Shown: positions 1-30,927 of the stretch, piece after piece
Position numbering within the stretch: position 1 is the stretch's first letter
Layout of the letters: each line of letters opens with the position of its first letter
DNA from: Escherichia phage ESSI2_ev129
Sequence record: NC_049394.1
Strand: one strand, 5' to 3'
Length of the DNA stretch: 30,927 nt
Notes under the pieces: model-generated
What the model saw: only the letters and a program-made list of their open reading frames with translations
Told to the model about the DNA's origin: nothing
Database searches by the model: none
Program-made: the position numbers and the translations under genes

Positions 1-43
1 ACAGAGTAGATCGTCGGCAGCGTCAGATGTGTATAAGAGACAG
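1..43. other. Illumina Nextera adapter / Tn5 mosaic-end sequence (library artifact, not biological)
   Basis: Bases 3-43 read AGAGTAGA + TCGTCGGCAGCGTC + AGATGTGTATAAGAGACAG (index-like octamer, Nextera read-1 adapter, 19-bp mosaic end). The exact reverse complement is at 30879-30927. Confidence 0.9.
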
Positions 44-196
44 GTAGCGCCGTTTTTGTCTGCGAAAGATTTATTTTGTCTGTTCATCGCTGCGCCAGCG
101 CAGCGCCATGCGCACGATCTTTTATGTATGTTGCGTTGGGTTAATTTGTTGTCTGAAGTGCTGAGAATGCGTTCTGCTGCGTCTGAGGAAGGGTAT

Positions 197-219
197 AAAA
201 AAGCCCGCTTTATGCGGGC
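197..219 (-). terminator. Rho-independent terminator closing the minus-strand late operon
   Basis: GCCCGC(203-208)/GCGGGC(214-219) 6-bp GC stem with 5-nt loop, followed on the minus strand by a T6 run (plus-strand A-run 197-202). Lies 13 nt past the stop of the last late gene at 232. Confidence 0.55.
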
Positions 220-231
220 GTGTTGTCATGG

Positions 232-1935
232 TCAGGCAATTATACTCTGGTACTTGCTCCGGGTCTGCCCGGCTTTCGTCGCCGTCTGTGTAAACTCTGC
301 GGCATTGGTTGGAGTCCCAACGGTTGGGTGTGAATGGTTCGCACATTGCTGCGCCAGCTCTGCCAGTAAATCAATGGTATCCAGCATCATGGTCAGGGCG
401 TTGATGCTCTCACTGCCAATATGGACAGTTGCCCCCATGACCTGCTGACCGCCTGCGGCCACTGATTTACGCAGTGCGGCAATCTTCTCTGTCAGGCTTT
501 CGCCAACCTCCACGGCTACAGCACCGCCCACTTTAGTGGACTGCTGTCCTGCTATGTCCGTTTCTTCGTTTCCTTCAATACTGGCCAGCCTGTTACCTTT
601 CACCGCCTGGCTGTAATCACCGGCGCTTACCTGCTGGATGGCTCCGGCCAGCAGTGTGGCGGTTCCCAGTACTGTGGTTTTATCCGTGGCTTTCACCGTG
701 GTTTTACGGCTGACCAGTTCGCGCTGTTCCGTATCGGCTTTTACGGTTCGCGCCATCGATGTTTCACTGATGGTCTGATCGGTCTGCCTTACCCAGTCTC
801 CAGCCTGCGTCACCCTCTGGGATACTTCTTCCCGCTGCTGCTGCAATTGCTCACCGGGTTTAACGTCCGGCAGGCTGGTGCCATCCGGCAGCGTCTGCCT
901 GATAAAGGGTTTATCCGGTCTGCCTCCCGTGAATGCAACCTCAACCAGCGTCCCTTCTGGCGGAAACTGAAACATACCTGAATCATTCCCGGCCATCGGT
1001 ACCGGCAACGGCACCGCTGAATAAACAGGCGTCTGATTGTCTGGATTTCCGTCTGCGTCAAGCAGCTGCACGTCCACAGCGTAACGTGGCCGGAAAGGAT
1101 CGGCAAAGTTACCGCTTTTTACCGGCTCTGAATGCGCCACGACTCTGGCCATCTTTGGCAAATGAAGCCCGGATGCCAGTTCCGGGTAATGGCTTTCAAT
1201 CTGCCGTTGCGCCGGTGTTTTCTGCAAAGGTTTACCCGTTGCGCGGTTTCTCGGCGTCCATGTGATCGCCATCGTGTCATTCGTCAGGTGAACTTTAGTC
1301 ACGCGTTCACCGTTCATCTCCACCCCTGGCCGCATAGTCTGGATCACAGGTAATGTCACAGAGTTACCGCCAGCAGCCCCCTGGCTGAACTCTGACGGGA
1401 TTTCTACGGGACGACCGGCAAACAATGATTTTTCTGCGCCTCCGACGTAAAGCGAACCATCAGGCAACTGGTACCAGATGTAATCCTGGATGCCGAACGC
1501 CCTGCCCAGATTGTTCAGCAACTGATAGCCGGTACCGTTATGGGTGAAATGTGGGATAGGGGTATCGCTGTACTGTGCATCAGGCACACTGACCGTGATC
1601 CCGCTGTTTTCTTCCAGCCAGCCCGCAATTTCACGCAAAGTCGGGTGTTGAAACGAACATGGCCACATCCTTTCAAACACACCTACCAGCTCACGAATGA
1701 ACAGACGCTGAAAACCGTTTTCTGCGGGCTGCGATCGCTCCACATACCCCGTAAACCAGCGCAAAAGCAGATCGGTATACCCCACATCCAGCCGCACCAG
1801 TTTTCCGGTGTAATCGGTTGTTGTCTCTGCGGTGATGAAGCCCCGGCCGCAGCTGTTCAGCTCCAGTACCAGGCTGGCATCCACCAGGTGAACTTCATCC
1901 GTTGAAAGGTAAAGGCGTTTTACTGGTTTCATCAT
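232..1935 (-). CDS. Baseplate hub-spike fusion protein (gpV-like OB-fold and His-rich apex, about 290-aa N-terminal extension; VgrG-like architecture)
   Basis: 567-aa ORF. Central segment PVPMAGNDSGMFQFPPEGTLVEVAFTGGRPDKPFI resembles the P2 gpV/gp5 OB-fold; C-terminal ANHSHPTVGTPT resembles the gpV apex HxH motif. ATG at 1933-1935 overlaps the upstream stop by 1 nt. Last gene of the late operon. Confidence 0.55.
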   Translation of the reverse strand: MMKPVKRLYLSTDEVHLVDASLVLELNSCGRGFITAETTTDYTGKLVRLDVGYTDLLLRWFTGYVERSQPAENGFQRLFIRELVGVFERMWPCSFQHPTLREIAGWLEENSGITVSVPDAQYSDTPIPHFTHNGTGYQLLNNLGRAFGIQDYIWYQLPDGSLYVGGAEKSLFAGRPVEIPSEFSQGAAGGNSVTLPVIQTMRPGVEMNGERVTKVHLTNDTMAITWTPRNRATGKPLQKTPAQRQIESHYPELASGLHLPKMARVVAHSEPVKSGNFADPFRPRYAVDVQLLDADGNPDNQTPVYSAVPLPVPMAGNDSGMFQFPPEGTLVEVAFTGGRPDKPFIRQTLPDGTSLPDVKPGEQLQQQREEVSQRVTQAGDWVRQTDQTISETSMARTVKADTEQRELVSRKTTVKATDKTTVLGTATLLAGAIQQVSAGDYSQAVKGNRLASIEGNEETDIAGQQSTKVGGAVAVEVGESLTEKIAALRKSVAAGGQQVMGATVHIGSESINALTMMLDTIDLLAELAQQCANHSHPTVGTPTNAAEFTQTATKAGQTRSKYQSIIA

Positions 1936-2480
1936 TAACCCAAAGCATCATTGACGGGCTTCAGCACTTTGCGTTCAAACCACGTCAGTTTTTCTTCATC
2001 TTCTCCGGCAGACTGGCCACCGGACTGTCCCACACTACCGGCAGTCTGTTTTTTTGCGGTCGTCTTACCTGTTGCCCTGGCCTCTCGCTTTTCCTGCACG
2101 CTGATATGTTCCGCCAGTGTGAATGTCACCAGCCAGGCCATTTTCCCGTCCTGCTGGGGTGCATCCAGCATTCCGCTGAACGTTGCTTCACGAAAATTAA
2201 CAGCACGGGCAACTTCATGCGCCACGCGGTACTTCTGACGATTACCACTGGCATCGGTAGCACTGGCCAGCTCAAAAATACGCTTCAGTATTTCAGGCTG
2301 TTTAAAAGGTATTTCACCGCTGATCCGCAGTTCCTTTCCCTTTGCTCCCTGCTCTGATTTTGTTGTGGCACTGGTCTGGCCGGACTGATCTTTATCCTGA
2401 AATTGCTGTGAAACAGTCACCCGCATGTTTTTCAGTTGGATGGTTTCGCCATTAAGCGCCAGTGTCGGGATCGAAGTCAT
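1935..2480 (-). CDS. Hypothetical tail-module protein (possibly gpU-like), function unassigned
   Basis: 181-aa ORF, ATG at 2478-2480 preceded by AAAGGGAA Shine-Dalgarno; overlaps the upstream gene by 29 nt and the downstream start by 1 nt. No motif recognised. Confidence 0.45.
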   Translation of the reverse strand: MTSIPTLALNGETIQLKNMRVTVSQQFQDKDQSGQTSATTKSEQGAKGKELRISGEIPFKQPEILKRIFELASATDASGNRQKYRVAHEVARAVNFREATFSGMLDAPQQDGKMAWLVTFTLAEHISVQEKREARATGKTTAKKQTAGSVGQSGGQSAGEDEEKLTWFERKVLKPVNDALG

Positions 2481-3177
2481 GAATCATTCCCTTTATTCCA
2501 TCAAGATTATCGCCAACCAGCATCATGGCAGCTGTGTAAACGGCAGACTGCTGCGGAATGTCCTTCACCAGTTCCAGTAACGTGGTACCGGTGTCTCCGC
2601 TGGCAGTAAAAACCCACGCTCTGGCACTCTTCCCCTGTAAATCATTCAGGCCGCTGGCCACATCACTGATAAGCTGGTCACGTAGCTGCGTGAACTCGCC
2701 CAGCTGTTTTTTCAGCCCTTCGATATCAAACCCGGCACCCGCCGCCTTTTGTGCATGGCTGATTGCCGCAGCAGATAAAGCTGCCCTGCTGGTTGGTACA
2801 GACAGCGGAATGGACGCAGGTAACGCAGCGGCGGTTTTCGCAGGGATCTGCATCTTTTCAATAGCCAACGCTGCGGCGGATTGCGCCAGCCGTTTGACCT
2901 GCATGAATGCCGGGGCGGGGAAAATCCCGACCAGGTTATTCAGGCTGGCCATAAAGTTTTCCTGCGTCTGTCCGGTGACCATCATAATCACCACATCCGC
3001 ATTCCCCCCTGTTCCGGCCAGGCGTTCAGCAAGATAGCGAACGGCATTAACCGGGCTGAGATATGCCCCGTTCGCTGTCTGCTGTCCCAGCCCATAAATC
3101 CACGGATGCGCAGGGACGATCGAACAGTTCAGCGCAGCAACTGAATCCGTGAAGGCCAGACGTGCTTCACGCCACAT
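2452..3177 (-). CDS. Hypothetical protein downstream of the tail fibre assembly gene (structural or accessory, unassigned)
   Basis: Track ORF is 2452..3213; start refined to ATG 3175-3177 (MWREARL...), preceded by GGAGGTG with 7-nt spacing and 5 nt after the Tfa stop. 241 aa, Ala/Gly-rich, contains ASGDTGTTLLEL. No confident family match. Confidence 0.45.
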   Translation of the reverse strand: MWREARLAFTDSVAALNCSIVPAHPWIYGLGQQTANGAYLSPVNAVRYLAERLAGTGGNADVVIMMVTGQTQENFMASLNNLVGIFPAPAFMQVKRLAQSAAALAIEKMQIPAKTAAALPASIPLSVPTSRAALSAAAISHAQKAAGAGFDIEGLKKQLGEFTQLRDQLISDVASGLNDLQGKSARAWVFTASGDTGTTLLELVKDIPQQSAVYTAAMMLVGDNLDGIKGMIHDFDPDTGA

Positions 3178-5338: not shown

Positions 5339-5926
5339 TTACAAACTCGCGCTGAATGTTGCGCTGCGGGCTTCCGTCCCTGCTAACGTCGCCGGGTAAA
5401 CCACATATTCCCCCTGATCCCACCCGGCCCGGATAACCAGGCTTTCAGACGTGATCACCTCAAACTGATAACGGCGGCATGTTCGCCCGTACTGGCGGAT
5501 TATCTGGATCAGCAGCTGCGTGTTGTCTGCAATCTGGCTGTCTGTAACCCGAACCAGAATCACATCCCAGTCGATATCCGGTTGCCGTTCTAACAGTTCC
5601 ACATAACCAATTCCCAGCCGTTCAAAGATATTGATAAACCCCTCTACTGAACCGGCATCCCGCGCATTCACGAAGGCAAAAGCCACGCGTTTGCGGAACA
5701 GGGTCAACGGTTCACCATCAAAGCGGGTGATATCCCGGTCATAAGCCAGCAGGTTCAGTAATGCCGGTGTACACGTCAGCGGATCAAACTGGTTCACTGG
5801 CCAGGTAACCCAGCCGTAAACCTCAGCCCAGAACCGCCGCGCCGTTTTCAGTAATTTCCCCGGTTCGCCTTTATTCATCCAGGAAGGCAAGACCATCCCG
5901 GCCAGCTTTTTCATGAACTCATTCAT
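5339..5926 (-). CDS. Baseplate/tail protein, P2 gpI-like
   Basis: 195 aa. Segment [25 protein letters not shown] resembles the conserved gpI motif (W.P.TCP..LLP.LA...D.WD). Position between the J-like gene and the fibre matches the P2 J-I-H order. Confidence 0.6.
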
Positions 5927-7103
5927 TCTCGATATTCACCGTCAGTGATTTCAGACGCGGCACGCTCAGTTCACTGGTAATGTCTCCCAGCGAAAATGTC
6001 AGTGATTCCGTCTGCGCAAAAGTTTTATGAATTTCCCGCCCCAGTTGCGAAAAGGAAAACCGCGAATATGGCCACGTCTTTCTGACGTCATAATCAGCAT
6101 TTTCACGAAAGGCACAGCGGATCATATTTTCAATGCCGCCTTTCAGCGTTTTCACTTCTTCGTCACTGAAGTTGTTCAGATTTTTGACATAAACCGTGAC
6201 GGCCAGATCGTGAAGCGTTTCCGGCATGGGGTAACACTGCATATCATCACCATGCCCGTGGTGCCCCAGCGTGTTGATATAGTCATTCACTGCATCCACG
6301 AACGGCGCTGATGCCACCCCACTGTCCAGTAATAAAAAGGCGTTGGCTGTTCCTGGCCCCCTCGGTGCTTCATGCTCAAAGAAAATCCGATCGATACTCA
6401 ACCCGGCAACACTGGCGATCATTGAGCGATAAACCGCATCAGTGTGGTAATTCCCCACCAGATTGAACTGATTGCGGCAACGCTCGCGCAGTTCATCATC
6501 ACTTTCCTCGTCAGCCCCCGGCACGGTCAGCCAGTTTTCCTCACTGGCCACGTGGCTGATACCACTGACCGCCACCGGCAGAATGCGGTAATATCCGGGC
6601 GCAAGGTTATATGCGCCCCCGGCGCCAGTGGCTTTCACCGGTAGCAATGCGCTGGCCGCACCGGAAGTGATCACCACATCCTCAGTGGTGGCCAGCTCAT
6701 ACACTCGCCCGTTAATGCGTTCTGTCTGGATAATCGTCCCGGCTTTGACCGTCACAACGGCCTTTGCATCTTCTTTGAAGAACCGAATCACCCCCTGTGC
6801 TGCGCTCGCCGGTTTTGCCGTGACGTTCACCGCCCAGGCCAGCAAACGCAACATGCTCCCACTGGCTGTGGCCACAAACATATTGGCCAGCACGGTTAAC
6901 ACCAGAACGTCTTTAAGCCACATCACCGGGGCGGTCACAATGGCGGTGATTAATCGCCAGAACGGTGACATGCGGGATGTATTGGTGATAATTCCCTCAT
7001 CTGCTGCAATCGCATTGAAGCGTTCCCGCACTTCGGCTTCCGTTACCGGCATACCGCTATCTTTCACCACTTCTTCAAAATCAACCTGCGGTTTTTCCGT
7101 CAT
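5919..7103 (-). CDS. Baseplate J-like protein (gp47/J family, tentative)
   Basis: Track ORF is 5919..7157; start refined to ATG 7101-7103 (MTEKPQ...), which forms an ATGA overlap with the upstream stop at 7100-7102. About 394 aa in the expected baseplate position; family call by position and size only. Confidence 0.5.
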   Translation of the reverse strand: MTEKPQVDFEEVVKDSGMPVTEAEVRERFNAIAADEGIITNTSRMSPFWRLITAIVTAPVMWLKDVLVLTVLANMFVATASGSMLRLLAWAVNVTAKPASAAQGVIRFFKEDAKAVVTVKAGTIIQTERINGRVYELATTEDVVITSGAASALLPVKATGAGGAYNLAPGYYRILPVAVSGISHVASEENWLTVPGADEESDDELRERCRNQFNLVGNYHTDAVYRSMIASVAGLSIDRIFFEHEAPRGPGTANAFLLLDSGVASAPFVDAVNDYINTLGHHGHGDDMQCYPMPETLHDLAVTVYVKNLNNFSDEEVKTLKGGIENMIRCAFRENADYDVRKTWPYSRFSFSQLGREIHKTFAQTESLTFSLGDITSELSVPRLKSLTVNIENE

Positions 7104-7429
7104 AAATCCACCTGCGCAGAGATCCCGCCAAAATCGTATGTACTCGCGGTTACCCACAGCCGCTTCTGACTCTCTTCACTGATTTCCACCGTACCCGGCA
7201 CAATGCGTTCATCATCTTCAATCAGTAATTCCATGCGGGTAAAAATATCCGCTCTCATTGTCGGACTACGTTCGGCAATTAATTCCGTCGCTAACCCACT
7301 TTCAATAATGGAATGAATAATGTCCTGCCCGATACTTTTTCGGTTATTACATAATTCAGGTTCATTACCGGTATTCAGAACAAAGTCACCGCCCTGAATC
7401 AGCAAATCGATATAAAGAACATCACTCAT
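7100..7429 (-). CDS. Small baseplate protein (gpW/gp25-like, tentative)
   Basis: Track ORF is 7100..7447; start refined to ATG 7427-7429 (MSDVLY...), giving an ATGA overlap with the tape-measure stop. 109 aa; segment SIGQDIIHSIIES is loosely W/gp25-like. Confidence 0.45.
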   Translation of the reverse strand: MSDVLYIDLLIQGGDFVLNTGNEPELCNNRKSIGQDIIHSIIESGLATELIAERSPTMRADIFTRMELLIEDDERIVPGTVEISEESQKRLWVTASTYDFGGISAQVDL

Positions 7430-9393
7430 GCGCCAAGCTCCTGCCATTCCATAAGCTGGGATGGCGAAAGTGCTTCTTTGGTATGGAAATGCACTTCACC
7501 AATTTTCCGGCTGTTATCGGTTACGGATTTACTGTTGCTGCTGATTGTTTTGCTGATACCACCTTTATCCACACCTTTTAAATCACCACCCGTTGACAGT
7601 GTATTTCCGGTTAATGGCTGCGTGGTTTCACTGGCCAGTGAAATATCCACGCCGGGAATTTTATTCAGTTTCTGAACAATCCAGTTCCACGACTTAAGAA
7701 ATCCCCCTTTGATTGACTTCCAGACATTATCAAACAGCGACATAATGCCGGAGGCCATCCCCTTTAATGCCTCAGACGGTGAAAATCCTGTCAGCAAAGA
7801 AATAAAGCTGTTCCATCCTTCACTGATATATTGCCAGGCTGAAGCAAAGATCCCCGCCAGCCATTTCACTACGGCGGCACATGTCTGGAAGGCTCCGGTA
7901 TTCATCACCGCTGCTTTTATCGTGTCCCAGTGCTTAACCAGCAGATAACAACCAGCAACCAGCAGCGCAATGGCACCAATCACAAGCAGAATCGGCCAGC
8001 TCATCAGGTTGATACCAATTCCGGCCATTATTGCGGCCATGCGTACCGCCAGTAACGCACCGCGCAAGAACTTCAGCGTGGTATTCCAGGCGATTACCGC
8101 TATTTGTGCCAGCCAGACAGTGGCCGTGTAGATTTTCGTAACCGCCGTTAACGCCACCCAAATCCCGCGCAATCCCATCATGATGAATCTGGATACCCCC
8201 ATCACGATATTGGCCACCGCACCCACGGCGGCAAAGCTCAGTAATGCCATCGACGCATAACCAATCACACGGGCAATGTTAGGAAATAACTGCATCCAGC
8301 GGGCAAAGGTCTGCCCCATATCAGCCAGGCGATTCAGAACCGGATACAGCACCGGGATCAACGTCAGTCCGATCACGGTCTGAATGGCTTTCAGAATTTG
8401 CACAAAGCGATCCCACGGCTTAACCATTTTTTGTGCCATTTCCTGGGTACGCTTCAGGCCGTCCGCGCCGCCCAGTTCGGTGATGTTCCGCTGAAGTAAC
8501 GCGACATTGCCGTAAAGCTGTTTAACCACTGCCGAACTGTCACCAAAGGCTGCATCCAGCTCCGCCTGGGCTTTCAGGTTCCCTTCAAGGCTTTTGCCAT
8601 ATTTGCCCTGCAACTTGATCAGCATTTCAGGCATGGACAGCATTTTGCCAGTAGAGTCAGTAAAGGACAGCCCCAGCTTTTTAGCGCCATCAATCGCACC
8701 GGTCATAAACCCTTCATAGGCGCTGCTGGCTTCCGTTCCCAGCGTCCGCTGAAGTTGCCCCAGCACGGCCAGCTGTTCATCCAGTCCCACGCCGTAGTTA
8801 GTCCCGACGCCGCGCGCACCTTCCATCAAATCCTTGATAGTGGCCATTTCTGTGCCAAAGGTTTTGCGCATATAAACCATCTTGCCCGCCAGTTGCTCGG
8901 CGAATTGAACCTTGCCCAGTCTGGTGGCATCGGCGGAAAAGTTACCGAACATCTGCCCCATAAATTCCGCCGTGTCCGCTGCTGTGGACTTGAGCGCAAA
9001 AGCCAGGGTATTGGCGACTTTCGTCACCTTCGGCAGTTCATTACCCGTCAGTCCGGCAATGGAAGCGTTAATATTTTCCGTGGATTTAACGAACTCCACC
9101 GCGCTGGCACCGTAGGTTGTACTGAAGCGCAGGGCATCACGCTGAACGGTCTTAAGCGCGGAATCATCAATCCCTTTTGCGGCGGCATCATTCAGCGCGT
9201 CATACATTTCAATTGCCGGTGATAACGCGCCCCTGATCGCCATTCCGACACCGGCCAGCGCCACCGCGCCGCCGCCAATCTGCATAAAGGCCGCTTTTGA
9301 TTTTTCCGCAAAGCCGGTGACGTTACCCTGCGCCTGTTTTAACGGGCGGGATAATTTATCAATCAGGCTTAATGTAAAATCTAATTGTTTCAT
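7426..9393 (-). CDS. Tail tape measure protein
   Basis: 655 aa, Ala/Gly/Leu-rich with a long central hydrophobic block (..IMGVSRFIMMGLRGIWVALTAV..ILLVIGAIALLVAGCYLLV..). Lies directly downstream of a chaperone gene with a frameshift site. ATG at 9391-9393. Confidence 0.85.
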   Translation of the reverse strand: MKQLDFTLSLIDKLSRPLKQAQGNVTGFAEKSKAAFMQIGGGAVALAGVGMAIRGALSPAIEMYDALNDAAAKGIDDSALKTVQRDALRFSTTYGASAVEFVKSTENINASIAGLTGNELPKVTKVANTLAFALKSTAADTAEFMGQMFGNFSADATRLGKVQFAEQLAGKMVYMRKTFGTEMATIKDLMEGARGVGTNYGVGLDEQLAVLGQLQRTLGTEASSAYEGFMTGAIDGAKKLGLSFTDSTGKMLSMPEMLIKLQGKYGKSLEGNLKAQAELDAAFGDSSAVVKQLYGNVALLQRNITELGGADGLKRTQEMAQKMVKPWDRFVQILKAIQTVIGLTLIPVLYPVLNRLADMGQTFARWMQLFPNIARVIGYASMALLSFAAVGAVANIVMGVSRFIMMGLRGIWVALTAVTKIYTATVWLAQIAVIAWNTTLKFLRGALLAVRMAAIMAGIGINLMSWPILLVIGAIALLVAGCYLLVKHWDTIKAAVMNTGAFQTCAAVVKWLAGIFASAWQYISEGWNSFISLLTGFSPSEALKGMASGIMSLFDNVWKSIKGGFLKSWNWIVQKLNKIPGVDISLASETTQPLTGNTLSTGGDLKGVDKGGISKTISSNSKSVTDNSRKIGEVHFHTKEALSPSQLMEWQELGA

Positions 9394-27929: not shown

Positions 27930-28550
27930 ATGGATCTCAAAAACGGAGGCCAGGCAGTTATAACCAGGCTCCTTGAAGCTTATGGATTTAAGACAAGGCA
28001 GGCTTTATGCGACCAATTGAAAGTATCAACAAGCACCATGGGAACGAGATGGATGCGTGATGTATTCCCAGCTGACTGGGTTATACAGTGCACAATCGAA
28101 ACTGGTGCATCAGTAGAATGGCTATCGTTCGGAACAGGCGAGAAATTTCCCAACGGAACCAGCAAAAACGCAAATGAGAATGAAGATTCCGCAAATGAGA
28201 ACTTGTTAGGTGATGTTGTTTCTGTTACCCGAAAAAAGGTAATAGATGGAAATTTATACGATTCTAATTTTTACATGCTCGACAAAGCCATGCTCCCATC
28301 CCACCTCAGCAAACCCATTATTATTGTGGATGATGATGTCAGCTACTTAGCCGAGCAGAAAAATGATGAATTAACAGACGGTACATGGCTTGTTGAAATT
28401 GAAGGGCAAGTGAGCATAAAAGAGCTAATACGCATTCCAGTAGGCAGGGTTCGTGTAACCTCAGTGCCTGGTAGCGCTAGTTTTGAGTGCGGTATTGATG
28501 ACTTAAAACCTATCGCAAAATGCCACTACTACCTGCTGACAGATGTTTGA
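27930..28550 (+). CDS. cI: CI-type immunity repressor (186 CI-like; no LexA-like autocleavage domain evident)
   Basis: 206 aa; N-terminal helix-turn-helix-like region (..QALCDQLKVSTSTMGTRWMRDVFPADWVIQ..); no Ala-Gly / Ser-Lys S24 peptidase motifs recognised; upstream of int on the same strand. Confidence 0.7.
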   Translation: MDLKNGGQAVITRLLEAYGFKTRQALCDQLKVSTSTMGTRWMRDVFPADWVIQCTIETGASVEWLSFGTGEKFPNGTSKNANENEDSANENLLGDVVSVTRKKVIDGNLYDSNFYMLDKAMLPSHLSKPIIIVDDDVSYLAEQKNDELTDGTWLVEIEGQVSIKELIRIPVGRVRVTSVPGSASFECGIDDLKPIAKCHYYLLTDV

Positions 28551-28627
28551 TCGAGAGTGAAACAAACATTGACACTGTATAAATAAACAGTAAATCATAC
28601 CCTATAGCAAGTAATAAGGGGTATTGA

Positions 28628-29677
28628 ATGGCTATTCGTAAACTTGAAACGGGTAAATGGCTCTGTGAATGCTACCCTTCCGGACGTTCTGGGCGCAGGG
28701 TACGAAAACAATTTGCAACCAAAGGTGAGGCAATGGCCTTTGAGCGCCACACAATGGATGAAGCCGCGTCTAAACCGTGGCTGGGGGATGTTGTTGATCG
28801 CCGCTCTTTAAAAGACATTGTAAACCTCTGGTATAAACTGCATGGCATATCTCTTACGGCTGGCGAACACGTATATGAAAAACTACTGCTGATCGTGGAC
28901 GCACTAGGAAACCCTCTGGCTACATCGCTAACCCCAAAAATGTTTGCTCATTACCGCGATAAACGCCTAACCGGAGAGATTTATTTCAGCGAAAAATGGA
29001 AGAATGGCGCTAGCCCTGTAACGGTTAATCTTGAGCAAAGTTATTTAAGCGGTGCCTTTAGTGAACTGATTCGCTTGGGCGAATGGCTTCAGCCAAACCC
29101 TCTTGAAAACATGCGAAAATTTACCATTGCTGAAAAGGAAATGGCCTGGCTGACACATGAACAGATTGCTGAACTTCTGTATGACTGCCAGCGTCAGAAC
29201 AAGCTGTTGACGCTGGTTGTGAAGATTTGCCTCAGTACAGGAGCAAGGTGGAGAGAGGCCGTCAATCTGACAAGGTCTCAGGTAACGAAGTACCGCATCA
29301 CTTTCACCAGAACGAAGGGAAAGAAAAACAGAAGCATCCCTATTAGCAAGGAGCTATATGAAGAGATCACCGTGCTGAAGGGGTTTAAGTTTTTTGATGA
29401 TTACTATTTTCAATTTGCATCAGTGATGGATAAAACTTCCATCATTCTGCCGCGAGGCCAGCTAACGCACGTTCTTCGCCACACCTTTGCTGCTCACTTT
29501 ATGATGTCCGGAGGAAACATACTCGCCCTTCAAAAAATACTGGGGCACCACGATATAAAAATGACTATGCGCTATGCCCACCTCGCGCCAGATCACCTTG
29601 AAACTGCGTTAAGGTTTAACCCCTTAGCTACTATGCAAAATGGCGACAAAATGGCGGCAGCGGTTGCCACTCCCTAA
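28628..29677 (+). CDS. int: Tyrosine integrase (P2/186 family)
   Basis: 349 aa. Catalytic signature ..HVLRHTFAAHF.. (H-x-x-R) and ..MRYAHLAPDH (Tyr) near the C-terminus; TGARWREAV region (Arg box). Confidence 0.85.
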   Translation: MAIRKLETGKWLCECYPSGRSGRRVRKQFATKGEAMAFERHTMDEAASKPWLGDVVDRRSLKDIVNLWYKLHGISLTAGEHVYEKLLLIVDALGNPLATSLTPKMFAHYRDKRLTGEIYFSEKWKNGASPVTVNLEQSYLSGAFSELIRLGEWLQPNPLENMRKFTIAEKEMAWLTHEQIAELLYDCQRQNKLLTLVVKICLSTGARWREAVNLTRSQVTKYRITFTRTKGKKNRSIPISKELYEEITVLKGFKFFDDYYFQFASVMDKTSIILPRGQLTHVLRHTFAAHFMMSGGNILALQKILGHHDIKMTMRYAHLAPDHLETALRFNPLATMQNGDKMAAAVATP

Positions 29678-29739
29678 CCTTTAATACTCCTAACTACTCT
29701 TTTAACTTATTGAGTTTAAAGCAAGTAATTGTTTTTCCT

Positions 29740-29768
29740 AACCCATTTATATAAATGGGTTTTTTGTT
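29740..29768 (+). terminator. Rho-independent terminator after int (perfect 22-bp palindrome)
   Basis: AACCCATTTAT|ATAAATGGGTT perfect inverted repeat (29740-29761) followed by TTTTTGTT. Confidence 0.6.
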
Positions 29769-29933
29769 GCCTGAATTTTTCAACCCATGAAATCAATAGA
29801 TTACACCAACCATTTCCCATGCTTGGCGACAAAGTGGCGACACAACTAAAGTCCCTCCTTCCCACAACGAAAACCATTGTCTAAAAATCGTATTGATTTA
29901 AAATCCCTTTTTTTCTTGTCAGGATGACTAATC

Positions 29934-30551
29934 ATGACTTCCTACGACCAACTTAAAGAATGTATCCGCCTTGAAGTCATCGGCCATGACAAATCCTTTT
30001 CATGGCGTAAAGCGTTACTTCGTACCCGGCGTAATCAGAAGAAGCACTTCCTGTTCTGGTGGCGCATCGCTTCATGGCTCTATGGCCAGAATAGTAAGTT
30101 CAAAAAACGCATTGCCCGCAGAATTGAAAACCGCCTCAAGTACCGGCACAGCGTTGATATTTCCCTCTCCTGCAAAATTGGCAAGGGTTTAAACATTGCT
30201 CATCTGAACGCAATTGTTATTACTGATAATTGCGTGATTGGTGATTTTGCCGACCTGAAGCAAGGCATCACCATAGGGTTACGCACAGACAGTGCCGACG
30301 CGATGATAGTCATTGGCGATCATGTTGATATTGGCTGTAACTCGTCCATTCTGGGCGGCAAGGTAACGATCGGTAATAATGTCACCATTGGGGCGCATTC
30401 ACTGGTACTTCAGAACATCCCCGACGACACCGTTTATAAAAACAAAATTATGCCGGTGTACACGTCAAAACTGCCACAGCAGGAAAATCAGCCTTTCGTC
30501 ACGGGTAATGCGACAAAGGAAGCGCCCCGTTCCGCAGAAGTAGCACTGTAA
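29934..30551 (+). CDS. Hexapeptide-repeat (left-handed beta-helix) acetyltransferase, serine-acetyltransferase/WcaB-like
   Basis: 205 aa; AGGA Shine-Dalgarno 9 nt before the ATG. Hexapeptide repeats ..ITDNCVIGDFADLKQGITIG..VIGDHVDIGCNSSILGGKVTIGNNVTIGAHSLV... Markedly AT-rich gene and flanks compared with the rest of the window. Confidence 0.7.
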   Translation: MTSYDQLKECIRLEVIGHDKSFSWRKALLRTRRNQKKHFLFWWRIASWLYGQNSKFKKRIARRIENRLKYRHSVDISLSCKIGKGLNIAHLNAIVITDNCVIGDFADLKQGITIGLRTDSADAMIVIGDHVDIGCNSSILGGKVTIGNNVTIGAHSLVLQNIPDDTVYKNKIMPVYTSKLPQQENQPFVTGNATKEAPRSAEVAL

Positions 30552-30878
30552 TTTCGATGTACAAATTTCAGTTGTGAAGATTTCATAAATTTACGCGCAG
30601 CCCGCGCCAGCACTTACAAGCGGGCTTCTCTCTATGATGTCAGGCTTCCCGTCCAACGATCCACAAATACCGCCTAAAATATAATTTTTCCTTTATATTC
30701 TGTAGGTTGCAACTTCACACCGATCCCTCACAGATCCTTTTTACTGAAAAAAAATGAAATTTCTTTCAATCATTTCAGTTTCTGTTCTCCGCAAAGCCGC
30801 CAGTAATGGCGCGATCTGGCGCTCTGGTTTGTAGAAAAATAAAACTGAAAAAATTTCCAGATCCAGAAACCGCAGGCG

Positions 30879-30927
30879 CTGTCTCTTATACACATCTGAC
30901 GCTGCCGACGATCTACTCTGTGTAGAT
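30879..30927. other. Illumina Nextera adapter read-through (library artifact)
   Basis: CTGTCTCTTATACACATCT + GACGCTGCCGACGA + TCTACTCT + GTGTAGAT; reverse complement of bases 1-43 plus six further adapter bases. Confidence 0.9.

What the first reader, a model, noticed from the sequence alone, without database searches (positions are those of the whole stretch)
29678..30878. AT-rich hexapeptide acetyltransferase beside int/att: candidate lysogenic-conversion cargo
A 205-aa left-handed beta-helix acetyltransferase (serine acetyltransferase / WcaB-like) lies just past int and its terminator. The gene and its flanks are visibly more AT-rich than the rest of the window, suggesting horizontally acquired cargo at the att-proximal position where P2-like phages carry accessory genes. 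Cytoplasmic acetyltransferases of this family act on sugar nucleotides or polysaccharide precursors, so it could modify surface polysaccharide. If the contig is an integrated prophage rather than a circle, it may instead be a flanking host gene.
Basis: partly seen in the sequence, partly recalled or inferred. Interest (0 to 1): 0.6.

Follow-up and report, generated by a model that had tools for sequence, protein, structure and literature searches.

The report
Phage-borne WcaB-like glycan acetyltransferase cargo
The gene is a real, selectively maintained accessory gene of a P2-like E. coli phage, mislabelled "serine acetyltransferase" in databases, that most likely acetylates the host's lipopolysaccharide or another surface sugar polymer in lysogens, which makes it a fairly ordinary kind of lysogenic-conversion gene from a family nobody has yet tested.

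Summary
The ORF is real: 29934..30551, + strand, 205 aa. The model shows a left-handed beta-helix with four N-terminal helices, and dN/dS against relatives is 0.07-0.12.

The window is a whole P2-like (Quadragintavirus) virion genome with Nextera adapter at both ends. Its ends join in prophages. The gene lies inside the phage, between attP and the right end, which is probably cos. The attP core (29755..29768) is the 3' end of the sRNA gene rybB. The host-gene alternative is refuted.

It is not CysE. The catalytic Asp/His pair is kept, but the serine-binding residues, the N-terminal domain and the curated score cut-offs are all missed. WcaB is the closest characterised relative.

Homologues (PHROG 2154, function unknown) are cargo genes in P2-like, P1-like and other prophages, usually convergent with tail-fibre genes. 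Chromosomal members sit in LPS-core operons, and phage copies pair with WaaZ-like or WaaU-like genes. In 19 sister prophages the same slot holds an Acyl_transf_3 gene.

Best reading: a cytoplasmic O-acetyltransferase of LPS or another surface glycan, acting in lysogenic conversion. This is inferred, not shown. The AT-richness lies mainly in the flanks.

The parts
29934..30551 (+). Acetyltransferase ORF, 205 aa, stop codon included. N-terminal four-helix region (residues 4-72), left-handed beta-helix (74-170), disordered C-terminal tail (175-205). Predicted catalytic pair D75 / H90.
   Evidence: (PHROG 2154, 189 bits)
29921..29924 (+). Shine-Dalgarno-like AGGA, nine bases before the ATG.
   Evidence: Read directly from the sequence.
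29877..29904 (+). Sigma-70-like promoter match (TTGTCT-16-TAAAAT) 30 bp upstream of the ORF. Only 1 site was found against 2.5 expected in shuffles, so this is a candidate only.
29755..29768 (+). attP common core ATGGGTTTTTTGTT, identical to the 3' end of the host sRNA gene rybB.
   Evidence: attP/attL/attR/attB alignment. Exact rybB plus core in lysogen L181. rybB as an integration site of P2-like prophages is reported in PMC10121019.
29740..29765 (+). Hairpin plus T-run (AACCCATTTAT/ATAAATGGGTT TTTT). It overlaps the core and is the phage copy that replaces the rybB terminator stem at attR.
29641..29659 (+). Left copy of the direct repeat TGGCGACAAA(A/G)TGGCG(G/A)CA flanking the core. Candidate integrase arm-type site; it lies in the 3' end of int.
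   Evidence: Assigning it as an Int binding site is inference.
29824..29842 (+). Right copy of the same direct repeat (89% identical). Candidate arm-type site on the acetyltransferase side of the core.
28628..29677 (+). Tyrosine integrase (Int_N plus Phage_integrase domains), 349 aa.
30722..30878 (.). Conserved backbone block before the genome end. It is present in all relatives whatever their cargo, and is conserved as sequence without covariation. Probably a cos-flanking terminase recognition region; not part of the cargo.
30870..30878 (.). Right genomic end ...CCGCAGGCG. This is half of a GC-rich block that reads CCGCAGGCG-GGTGCGGT-GTAGCGCC in prophages. Probable cos.
44..52 (.). Left genomic end GTAGCGCCG. 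The deposited ESSI2_ev015 record starts at the same base, also directly after adapter.
1..43 (.). Nextera i5 adapter (…AGAGTAGA TCGTCGGCAGCGTC AGATGTGTATAAGAGACAG). Not phage DNA.
   Evidence: Read; adapter identity rests on my own knowledge of the Nextera sequences.
30879..30927 (.). Reverse complement of the same Nextera adapter (CTGTCTCTTATACACATCT GACGCTGCCGACGA TCTACTCT GTGTAGAT). Not phage DNA.
   Evidence: Read; adapter identity rests on my own knowledge.

Best explanation
The ORF encodes a soluble, probably trimeric, acetyl-CoA-dependent O-acetyltransferase of the CysE/WcaB branch of the left-handed beta-helix superfamily. It belongs to an uncharacterised family carried by temperate phages (PHROG 2154).

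It is a cargo gene transcribed on its own, opposite to the late tail operon. It lies between attP and the right end of the virion chromosome. After integration at rybB it becomes the first prophage gene inside attL.

Proposed mechanism: in the lysogen the enzyme works at the cytoplasmic face of the inner membrane. There it O-acetylates a sugar of the lipopolysaccharide core, or of another lipid-linked surface glycan intermediate. This changes the cell surface (lysogenic conversion) and probably reduces adsorption of phages that use that glycan.

Shown: the gene, its fold, retention of the catalytic Asp/His pair, loss of the serine-binding residues, purifying selection, its position inside the phage, its cargo status, and the genomic associations.

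Inferred: the substrate, expression in the lysogen, and any exclusion phenotype.
For: 1. Fold and chemistry.
- The model has pLDDT 89.6, and only serine acetyltransferase-type LbH enzymes appear as top structural matches.
- CysE D143 and H158 align to D75 and H90. The family has D/E in 26 of 33 sequences and H in 26 of 33.

2. It is closer to a glycan acetyltransferase than to CysE.
- 42% identity to E. coli WcaB over the LbH domain, against 33% to CysE.
- The best curated model is the exopolysaccharide-locus EpsC.

3. Chromosomal full-length family members at 42-43% identity lie in LPS-core clusters.
- Leminorella grimontii: waaB-waaO-waaY-waaZ-[member], convergent with a Wzy_C O-antigen ligase gene.
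- Pseudomonas sp.: two WaaP/Kdo-family kinases, GT2, [member], UDP-sugar dehydrogenase.

4. Phage copies are followed by LPS-core-type partners.
- A WaaZ-like gene in L086-L088 (E 2e-14 to K-12 WaaZ).
- A WaaU-like GT9 gene in L067 (E 6e-20).
- A Salmonella prophage copy lies near a GtrC-like GT_STM0557_N gene.

5. The same slot in sister prophages holds a functional analogue.
- The backbone occurs in 51 of 5426 complete E. coli genomes.
- In 19 of them the slot holds an Acyl_transf_3 gene (PF01757, 101.6 bits). By my own knowledge this is the family of the classical phage O-antigen acetylases.
- At least 14 hold a member of this family.

6. Typical cargo position.
- In IMG/VR, 19 of 23 non-redundant lineages have a convergent downstream gene, and 12 of 24 have a tail fibre within two genes.
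- The deposited phages phiNP and yong2 show the same arrangement, as do P1-like elements.
- This is the slot type of P2 fun(Z).

7. dN/dS is 0.07-0.12.

8. Precedent: NeuO of prophage CUS-3 is an LbH enzyme that acetylates the K1 capsule and raises phage resistance (PMC3046976, PMC13001214).
Against: - There is no biochemical or phenotypic datum for any member of the family. Two papers that noticed the gene call its role unknown or simply 'fitness' (PMC9603915, PMC6456863).
- The substrate assignment is guilt by association, drawn from a handful of loci at about 42% identity. Other chromosomal members sit in uninformative contexts (L100, L102, L104, L105).
- The same slot also holds defence-like genes: AbiJ-like, reverse transcriptase, PIN_8.
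- One acetyltransferase allele (P0002) occurs with two different tail fibres, 524 aa and 682 aa. There is therefore no strict pairing with the phage's own receptor-binding protein in this lineage.
- A sub-clade that includes the abundant P1-like form has Tyr in place of the catalytic His, so not all members may be active.
- The promoter match is no better than chance.
Confidence: 0.6

Rival explanations
1. The gene is an anti-phage defence or other accessory function that acetylates something other than a surface glycan, such as a small molecule, a nucleotide, or a phage or host protein.
For: - It lies in a variable island that in relatives carries an AbiJ-like gene, a reverse transcriptase and a PIN_8 protein.
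- att-, cos- and tail-proximal slots of P2-like phages are known defence hotspots (PMC9122126 and PMC13586616).
- P2 fun(Z), in the analogous slot, blocks T5 (annotation).
Against: - No PADLOC model matches the window protein or two paralogues.
- The closest characterised relative is a polysaccharide acetyltransferase.
- Family members are embedded in LPS-core operons and paired with WaaZ-like or GT9 genes.
- An Acyl_transf_3 gene substitutes for it in 19 sister prophages.
- Receptor masking would itself count as defence, so this rival differs only in the substrate.
Confidence: 0.22
2. The gene is a genuine serine O-acetyltransferase, as the databases annotate it: an auxiliary metabolic gene that boosts cysteine synthesis.
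For: - RefSeq and GenBank name it 'serine (O-)acetyltransferase'.
- The best PDB sequence and fold matches are CysE enzymes.
- One homologue, L073, lies next to a sulfate permease and a solute-binding protein.
Against: - NCBIfam cysE scores 77.4 bits against a cut-off of 210.65, and PRK11132 scores 60.5 against 397.
- The alignment covers only CysE residues 109-234, and no SATase_N domain is found.
- The serine-binding residues D157, R192 and H193 are A, A and M here and are never conserved in the family; D92 has no counterpart.
- The C-terminus ends ...EVAL, not in the CysK-binding Ile tail (that feature is my own knowledge).
Confidence: 0.04
3. The gene is a xenobiotic or antibiotic acetyltransferase of the Vat/CatB type, or a sugar-detoxifying enzyme of the LacA/Maa type, carried as a fitness gene.
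For: - It has the same LbH superfamily fold.
- There are weak NCBIfam hits to galactoside and maltose O-acetyltransferases, at 20.8 and 18.4 bits.
Against: - Those hits are far weaker than the hits to EpsC, CysE and WcaB.
- No Vat or CatB model appears among the 25 families listed.
- The genomic associations point to LPS and tail-fibre modules, not resistance islands.
Confidence: 0.04
4. The gene is a host chromosomal gene flanking an integrated prophage.
For: In complete E. coli genomes homologues lie directly next to host genes, mntR or ybjL.
Against: - The att core lies between the host gene and the acetyltransferase.
- K-12 has only rybB between ybjL and rcdA.
- The window's end and start are colinear across the joint in three prophages.
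- The gene is present in virion-derived records of ev015 and ev040.
Confidence: 0.01

Closest known systems
WcaB, the colanic acid O-acetyltransferase of E. coli (TIGR04016)
   Same: - Short, single-domain protein of the CysE/WcaB branch of the LbH superfamily.
- 42% identity over the 93-residue LbH core.
- Same catalytic His position.
- Same lack of the CysE serine-binding Arg-His and Asp.
- WcaB acts on a lipid-linked polysaccharide intermediate in the cytoplasm (K-12 annotation, plus my own knowledge).
   Different: - It scores 70.3 bits against the WcaB cut-off of 194.65.
- It has a different and longer N-terminal helical region with the family motif FSWRK...FWWRIA, plus a 30-residue disordered tail.
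- It is encoded on a phage, not in the colanic acid (wca) cluster.
CysE serine O-acetyltransferase
   Same: - Best-matching solved structures.
- The catalytic Asp-His pair is conserved.
   Different: - No SATase_N domain.
- No serine-binding residues.
- No CysK-binding tail.
- Far below the curated cut-offs.
- The database name 'serine acetyltransferase' is an over-annotation.
NeuO, the polysialic acid O-acetyltransferase of prophage CUS-3
   Same: It is a cytoplasmic LbH acetyltransferase carried as prophage cargo. It modifies a surface polysaccharide and affects phage resistance (PMC3046976 and PMC13001214). This is the best functional analogy.
   Different: - No detectable sequence relationship: NeuO is absent from the 41 PDB sequence hits at E <= 1e-3.
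- No phase-variable heptanucleotide repeats in or before the ORF.
- Different phage type and probably a different substrate.
Acyl_transf_3 seroconversion O-acetyltransferases (Oac/OafA type)
   Same: - This family occupies the identical slot, between attL and the 567-aa tail gene, in 19 sister prophages.
- It is the classical phage-borne O-antigen acetylase family (my own knowledge).
   Different: It is an unrelated fold: an integral membrane protein of about 395 aa that acts at or across the membrane. The window protein is a soluble LbH enzyme.
P2 fun(Z), and tin/old: the lysogenic-conversion genes of phage P2
   Same: - Same genomic logic.
- fun(Z) lies convergent after the tail-fibre assembly gene, where most homologues of the window protein sit.
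- tin and old lie next to cosR, where the window copy sits.
   Different: No sequence or fold relationship. Their mechanisms do not involve glycan modification, as far as is known (my own knowledge).

Membership tests
Left-handed beta-helix (hexapeptide) acyltransferase superfamily | Hexapeptide repeats forming an LbH domain. | tested here: met
   Pfam Hexapep scores 26.4 bits, just under the cut-off of 27. The AlphaFold model has beta-helix coils at residues 74-170 with pLDDT around 90. Foldseek probability is 1.00 to LbH acetyltransferases.
Left-handed beta-helix (hexapeptide) acyltransferase superfamily | Catalytic histidine, with a supporting acidic residue, at the subunit interface. | tested here: met
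   H90 and D75 align with CysE H158 and D143. Their activity was not tested.
CysE serine O-acetyltransferase (TIGR01172 / PRK11132) | Score at or above the curated equivalog cut-off. | tested here: not met
   77.4 bits against 210.65, and 60.5 against 397.
CysE serine O-acetyltransferase (TIGR01172 / PRK11132) | N-terminal SATase_N alpha-helical domain. | tested here: not met
   No PF06426 hit. The alignments begin at CysE residue 108-109.
CysE serine O-acetyltransferase (TIGR01172 / PRK11132) | L-serine/cysteine-binding residues D92, D157, R192 and H193 (E. coli numbering; their role is my own knowledge of the CysE structures). | tested here: not met
   D157 aligns to A89, R192 to A and H193 to M. 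D92 has no aligned residue. None is conserved in 33 family members.
CysE serine O-acetyltransferase (TIGR01172 / PRK11132) | C-terminal tail ending in Ile that binds CysK. | tested here: not met
   The protein ends ...PRSAEVAL, and most family members stop near residue 180. The feature itself is my own knowledge.
WcaB colanic acid acetyltransferase (TIGR04016 / PRK10191) | Score at or above the curated equivalog cut-off. | tested here: not met
   70.3 bits against 194.65, and 68.5 against 196.
WcaB colanic acid acetyltransferase (TIGR04016 / PRK10191) | Encoded in the colanic acid (wca) gene cluster. | tested here: not met
   It is encoded between attP and cos of a phage. The K-12 wca cluster is shown.
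PHROG 2154 (phage protein family, function unknown) | Full-length match to the family profile. | tested here: met
   E 1.1e-55, 189 bits, residues 4-173 against profile positions 6-175 of 185. The ev040 and CP063503 paralogues match as well.
NeuO-type prophage capsule O-acetyltransferase | Sequence homology to NeuO. | tested here: not met
   NeuO is not among the 41 PDB sequences matched at E <= 1e-3.
NeuO-type prophage capsule O-acetyltransferase | Phase-variable heptanucleotide repeats at the 5' end of the gene. | tested here: not met
   TRF finds one tandem array in 29600-30927, an 11-nt unit at 29636-29656 that lies inside int. The repeat finder reports only two-copy direct-repeat families there and no multi-copy heptanucleotide array; D2 has one copy in the ORF's 5' part, 29984-30000.
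Lysogenic-conversion (seroconversion) gene of a temperate phage | Encoded inside the phage genome as non-essential, variable cargo. | tested here: met
   It lies inside attL in lysogens. The island content varies among relatives with 91-97% identical backbones.
Lysogenic-conversion (seroconversion) gene of a temperate phage | Expressed from the prophage, and changes a surface structure. | not testable with these tools
   Only indirect evidence exists: the gene has its own orientation, opposite to the late operon, and it associates with LPS genes.
Known anti-phage defence systems (PADLOC-DB 2.0.0) | Match to a defence-protein model. | tested here: not met
   No family matched the window protein or two paralogues at E <= 0.01. 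The neighbouring ev040 gene does match AbiJ.

The most novel reading that the evidence does not exclude
PHROG 2154 would be a widespread, uncharacterised class of phage-borne cytoplasmic O-acetyltransferases that act on the LPS core itself. The core is the receptor of P2-like and P1-like myoviruses (my own knowledge).

These genes would be swapped as cassettes, interchangeably with Acyl_transf_3 enzymes, in the tail-fibre-adjacent and att/cos-adjacent cargo slots of unrelated temperate phages.

Core acetylation would then be a so far undescribed way for E. coli lysogens to mask a conserved receptor.
Probability: 0.3. Interest if true: 0.55.

Novelty: new member of a known kind. Interest (0 to 1): 0.35.

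Why it matters
If the prediction holds, a gene annotated across GenBank as "serine acetyltransferase" is really a surface-glycan modifier. It occurs in hundreds of enterobacterial prophages and P1-like phage-plasmids, and one paper states that the reason for its presence is "still unknown" (PMC9603915).

Such a modifier can change phage susceptibility and perhaps serology. That bears on phage-therapy host-range prediction, on LPS-core typing, and on how temperate phages protect their lysogens.

It would also correct a systematic mis-annotation, and it gives a simple testable hypothesis (+42 Da on LPS). It is not a new principle: phage-borne O-acetyltransferases, including an LbH one (NeuO), are well known.

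Tried and rejected
- **Host-gene reading.** Rejected by the att mapping.
- **True CysE.** Rejected on scores, domain content and active-site residues.
- **Known defence system.** No PADLOC hit. Papers on P2 hotspots do not mention an acetyltransferase.
- **RNA element in the 3' flank.** Rfam gave only a sub-threshold Phe_leader match at 30747-30870 on the minus strand (27.4 bits against a gathering score of 55, E 0.05). An 11-sequence alignment of that block shows strong sequence conservation but a covariation term of only -0.33 kcal/mol. I read it as a DNA site next to cos, not an RNA.
- **Similarity of the end joint to the P2 cos 19-mer.** None beyond chance: local alignment scores fall within shuffles, and the best match has 6 of 19 mismatches.
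- **Exact-protein look-up.** The exact protein is not on record, so I used the 95% and 88% relatives instead.
- **Strict co-inheritance with the phage's own tail fibre.** Not supported in this lineage: the same allele occurs with two different fibres.
- **Genome-contig scan.** Only about 15 of the 80 loci were full-length family members; the rest were ordinary CysE-like genes, for example in Nitrospira.
- **Phase variation of the NeuO kind.** No such repeats.
Full report
**What is in the window**

The window is a complete genome of a P2-like phage. Positions 45-25000 are about 96% identical to Escherichia phages ESSI2_ev015 and ESSI2_ev040 (Peduoviridae, Quadragintavirus). The gene order follows the annotated ev040 record. 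Late and tail genes run on the minus strand from the left end, followed by terminase and portal, the replication genes, and a cox-like gene. CI (27930..28550) and int (28628..29677) follow on the plus strand.

Both ends of the window are Nextera adapter, at 1-43 and 30879-30927.

**The observation**

The ORF at 29934..30551 (+, 205 aa) is real. It has an AGGA nine bases before the ATG.

Against four close relatives its dN/dS is 0.07-0.12. The value is 0.05-0.07 for residues 1-172 and 0.11-0.28 for the C-terminal tail.

Domain searches place it in the hexapeptide superfamily:
- Pfam Hexapep scores 26.4 bits against a cut-off of 27.
- The best NCBIfam models are EpsC (84.8 bits, cut-off 150), CysE (77.4, cut-off 210.65) and WcaB (70.3, cut-off 194.65). 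None is reached.

An AlphaFold model built on 45 homologues has pLDDT 89.6. It shows four helices (residues 4-72), a left-handed beta-helix (74-170) and a disordered tail (175-205). Its top Foldseek PDB matches are all serine acetyltransferases, with TM 0.6-0.68.

The AT-richness claim is only partly right:
- The 1201-bp block has GC 0.430 and is the lowest-GC window of the contig, which averages 0.515.
- The ORF itself is 0.472 (17th percentile). That equals int (0.468) and exceeds CI (0.432). Its GC3 is 0.539.
- The low GC lies in the spacer (0.344) and the 3' flank (0.416).

**Where the gene sits: att, cos and the joined ends**

I aligned four sequences:
- the stretch after int in the window;
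- attL and attR of a degraded prophage in E. coli strain 300709, whose int is 88% identical to the window's;
- the empty site in K-12.

This gives a 14-bp common core, ATGGGTTTTTTGTT, at 29755..29768. It is the 3' end of the sRNA gene rybB, which lies between ybjL and rcdA.

A direct repeat, TGGCGACAAA(A/G)TGGCG(G/A)CA, flanks the core at 29641-29659 and 29824-29842. These are candidate integrase arm sites. Integration of P2-like prophages in rybB is already reported (PMC10121019).

The E. coli assembly GCA_048601165.1 shows the integrated state directly. It has an exact rybB, then the core. A single alignment at 96.3% identity then runs from window 29755 to 30878 and on into 45..2998. The acetyltransferase is therefore the first prophage gene inside attL, and the host-gene alternative is refuted.

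Across the joint, the prophages read CCGCAGGCG-GGTGCGGT-GTAGCGCC. The window lacks the middle 8 bases.

The deposited ev015 record also begins with Nextera adapter, followed by the very same base (GTAGCGCC...). It ends ...CCGCAGGCGGGTGC.

Two independent libraries ending at the same place in a GC-rich block points to a fixed physical end, that is, cos. It shows no similarity to the P2 cos 19-mer. A 157-bp block (30722-30878) precedes it in every relative, whatever the cargo. It is conserved as sequence without covariation, so I take it for a packaging site belonging to the backbone.

The cargo island proper is therefore about 29769-30720, between attP and cosR. This position is analogous to that of tin and old in P2.

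**Cargo status**

The island differs among phages whose backbones are 84-98% identical:

| Relative | Content of the island |
|---|---|
| ev015 | acetyltransferase plus three small ORFs |
| ev040 | AbiJ-like gene here, plus a 42%-identical paralogue of the acetyltransferase in a second slot beyond cos |
| AP031375 | reverse transcriptase plus the acetyltransferase |
| CP063503 | a mosaic acetyltransferase, similar to the window only from base 30369 onward; that point falls in the conserved IGNNVTIGA motif |
| Others | DUF4760, PIN_8, DUF6338 |

The backbone is present in 51 of 5426 complete E. coli genomes. Of these, 19 carry an Acyl_transf_3 gene in this slot (PF01757, 101.6 bits). At least 14 carry a member of the acetyltransferase family.

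**What the protein is not**

It is not CysE.
- It aligns only with CysE residues 109-234 and has no SATase_N domain.
- It keeps the catalytic pair: CysE D143 and H158 correspond to D75 and H90.
- It has A, A and M where CysE has the serine-binding D157, R192 and H193. CysE D92 has no counterpart.
- WcaB lacks the same residues. It is the closer relative over the beta-helix: 42% identity over 93 residues, against 33% for CysE.

It matches no PADLOC model. It has no detectable sequence relationship to NeuO and no phase-variation repeats.

**The family and its contexts**

The protein is a full-length member of PHROG 2154, function unknown (189 bits).

Relatives at 37% identity or more in the big protein database are all from Enterobacterales. 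Full-length relatives also occur in Pseudomonas, Halomonas, Gilliamella and others. In a library clustered at 50% identity, only 8 representatives score below 1e-30, and a few dozen cover the full length.

Contexts in phages:
- A 45-49% identical form (a cluster of 783 member sequences) lies in P1-like elements, between the lydB/darA block and the tail-fibre assembly and tail-fibre genes.
- In phiNP of Citrobacter rodentium and in Hafnia phage yong2, it is convergent with the tail-fibre assembly gene.
- Among the 78 of 80 IMG/VR loci in which the ORF could be called, the next gene is a convergent Caudo_TAP in 48.
- Counting acetyltransferase lineages at 80% identity gives 24 clusters. Of the 23 with a downstream gene, 19 have it convergent. 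Eight have the assembly gene directly adjacent, and 12 have a tail fibre within two genes.
- This is the slot that fun(Z) occupies in P2.
- Other copies lie next to an integrase or next to the portal gene.
- In Kosakonia the gene persists at the ybjL/rybB site without a prophage.

**Evidence for the substrate**

- In Leminorella grimontii, a 42%-identical full-length member is the last gene of the LPS-core operon, waaB-waaO-waaY-waaZ-[member]. It takes the place of K-12 waaU and is convergent with a Wzy_C O-antigen ligase gene.
- In a Pseudomonas species, a 43%-identical member lies between a GT2 gene and a UDP-sugar dehydrogenase, just downstream of two WaaP/Kdo-family kinases.
- In phage loci L086-L088 the gene is followed, 36 bp downstream on the same strand, by a WaaZ-like gene (E 2e-14 to K-12 WaaZ).
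- In L067 it is convergent with a WaaU-like GT9 gene (E 6e-20).
- A Salmonella prophage copy lies near a GtrC-like gene.

Add to these the Acyl_transf_3 substitution in sister prophages and the homology to WcaB. Together they point to O-acetylation of LPS, possibly its core, or of another lipid-linked glycan at the cytoplasmic face of the membrane.

P1 and P2 adsorb to the LPS core (my own knowledge). That would make receptor masking a natural selective advantage, but this step is inference.

**Caveats**

- No member of the family has been tested. Two papers that noticed the gene call its role unknown or 'fitness'.
- The associations rest on a few loci at about 42% identity.
- Several chromosomal members have uninformative neighbours.
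- The same allele occurs with two different tail fibres.
- A sub-clade that includes the P1-like form has Tyr in place of the catalytic His.
- The only promoter-like match, at 29877-29904, is no better than chance.

**Verdict**

It is sharpened in three ways:
- The gene lies inside the phage, between attP(rybB) and cos.
- It is WcaB-like, not a serine acetyltransferase.
- Its family is linked to LPS-core genes and to tail-fibre modules.

This is a new member of a known kind. Prophage-borne O-acetyltransferases are established, and NeuO is an LbH precedent (PMC3046976, PMC13001214). Interest is moderate, because the family is common, mis-annotated and untested.

Noticed in passing
window 1-43 and 30879-30927; L192 (NC_049395.1) 1-48: Untrimmed Nextera i5 adapter caps both ends of the window. 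The public RefSeq/GenBank record of ESSI2_ev015 also starts with about 48 bases of the same adapter, so that deposited record is contaminated.
   Followed up: partly
window 30870-30878 joined to 44-52: This is the probable cos site. Prophages read CCGCAGGCG-GGTGCGGT-GTAGCGCC across the joint; the window lacks the middle 8 bases and ev015 lacks 3. Both assemblies start at the identical base. There is no similarity to the P2 cos 19-mer.
   Followed up: partly
window 30722-30878: A 157-bp block is conserved at 78-96% in all relatives, regardless of the adjacent cargo. It has several invariant T-rich motifs and no base-pair covariation. A weak Rfam Phe_leader match on the minus strand (27.4 bits, E 0.05) is probably chance. 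This is a candidate terminase recognition region.
   Followed up: partly
window 29755-29768, 29641-29659, 29824-29842: The attP core equals the 3' end of the sRNA gene rybB. The phage supplies a substitute terminator hairpin, so rybB stays intact at attL. Paired TGGCGACAAA repeats on both arms look like integrase arm sites. In a lysogen the acetyltransferase lies about 165 bp downstream of rybB on the same strand.
   Followed up: partly
L003 (NZ_CP063503.1) 5416-6189, compared with window 30369-30551: This is a mosaic acetyltransferase of 257 aa. Its N-terminal part is divergent, while the last 60 or so residues and the 3' flank are near-identical to the window's. The breakpoint falls at the most conserved hexapeptide motif (IGNNVTIGA), which suggests cassette exchange by recombination inside the gene.
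   Followed up: no
L004 (ESSI2_ev040) 28468-29286 and 29969-30523: ev040 carries an AbiJ-like gene where the window has the acetyltransferase. It also has a 42%-identical paralogue in a second cargo slot, beyond the cos-like block and just before the 567-aa tail gene. E. coli prophages have a DUF4760 gene in that second slot (L183).
   Followed up: partly
L188 (NZ_CP090570.1) 1293-2480, and 18 other E. coli genomes: Sister prophages integrated next to raiA carry an Acyl_transf_3 membrane acyltransferase in the slot equivalent to that of the window gene.
   Followed up: yes
L006 (E. coli 300709, NZ_CP025903.1) 1217-2950: An AAA-family ATPase gene plus a DUF4276 gene are inserted between CI and int of a degraded relative. 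This is a further cargo slot and possibly a defence pair. The same prophage keeps only a truncated acetyltransferase, matching window 29755-30280 at 96.8%.
   Followed up: no
alignment A1; P0022, P0026, P0028: Seven of 33 family members have Tyr in place of the catalytic His (H90). They include the abundant P1-like form (a cluster of 783 member sequences). They may be inactive or may use a different base.
   Followed up: no
window 195-219, minus strand: A perfect intrinsic terminator (GCCCGC-ataaa-GCGGGC followed by TTTTTT) lies directly after the stop codon of the 567-aa tail gene (232..1935, minus strand). It marks the end of the late tail operon, just before the left genome end.
   Followed up: no
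L012/L013 (Kosakonia) 7001-7576: A 37%-identical family member sits directly after the ybjL homologue, at the rybB-type site. Only a few small genes separate it from the TetR/rcdA homologue, and no prophage is present. It appears to be cargo retained after the prophage decayed.
   Followed up: no
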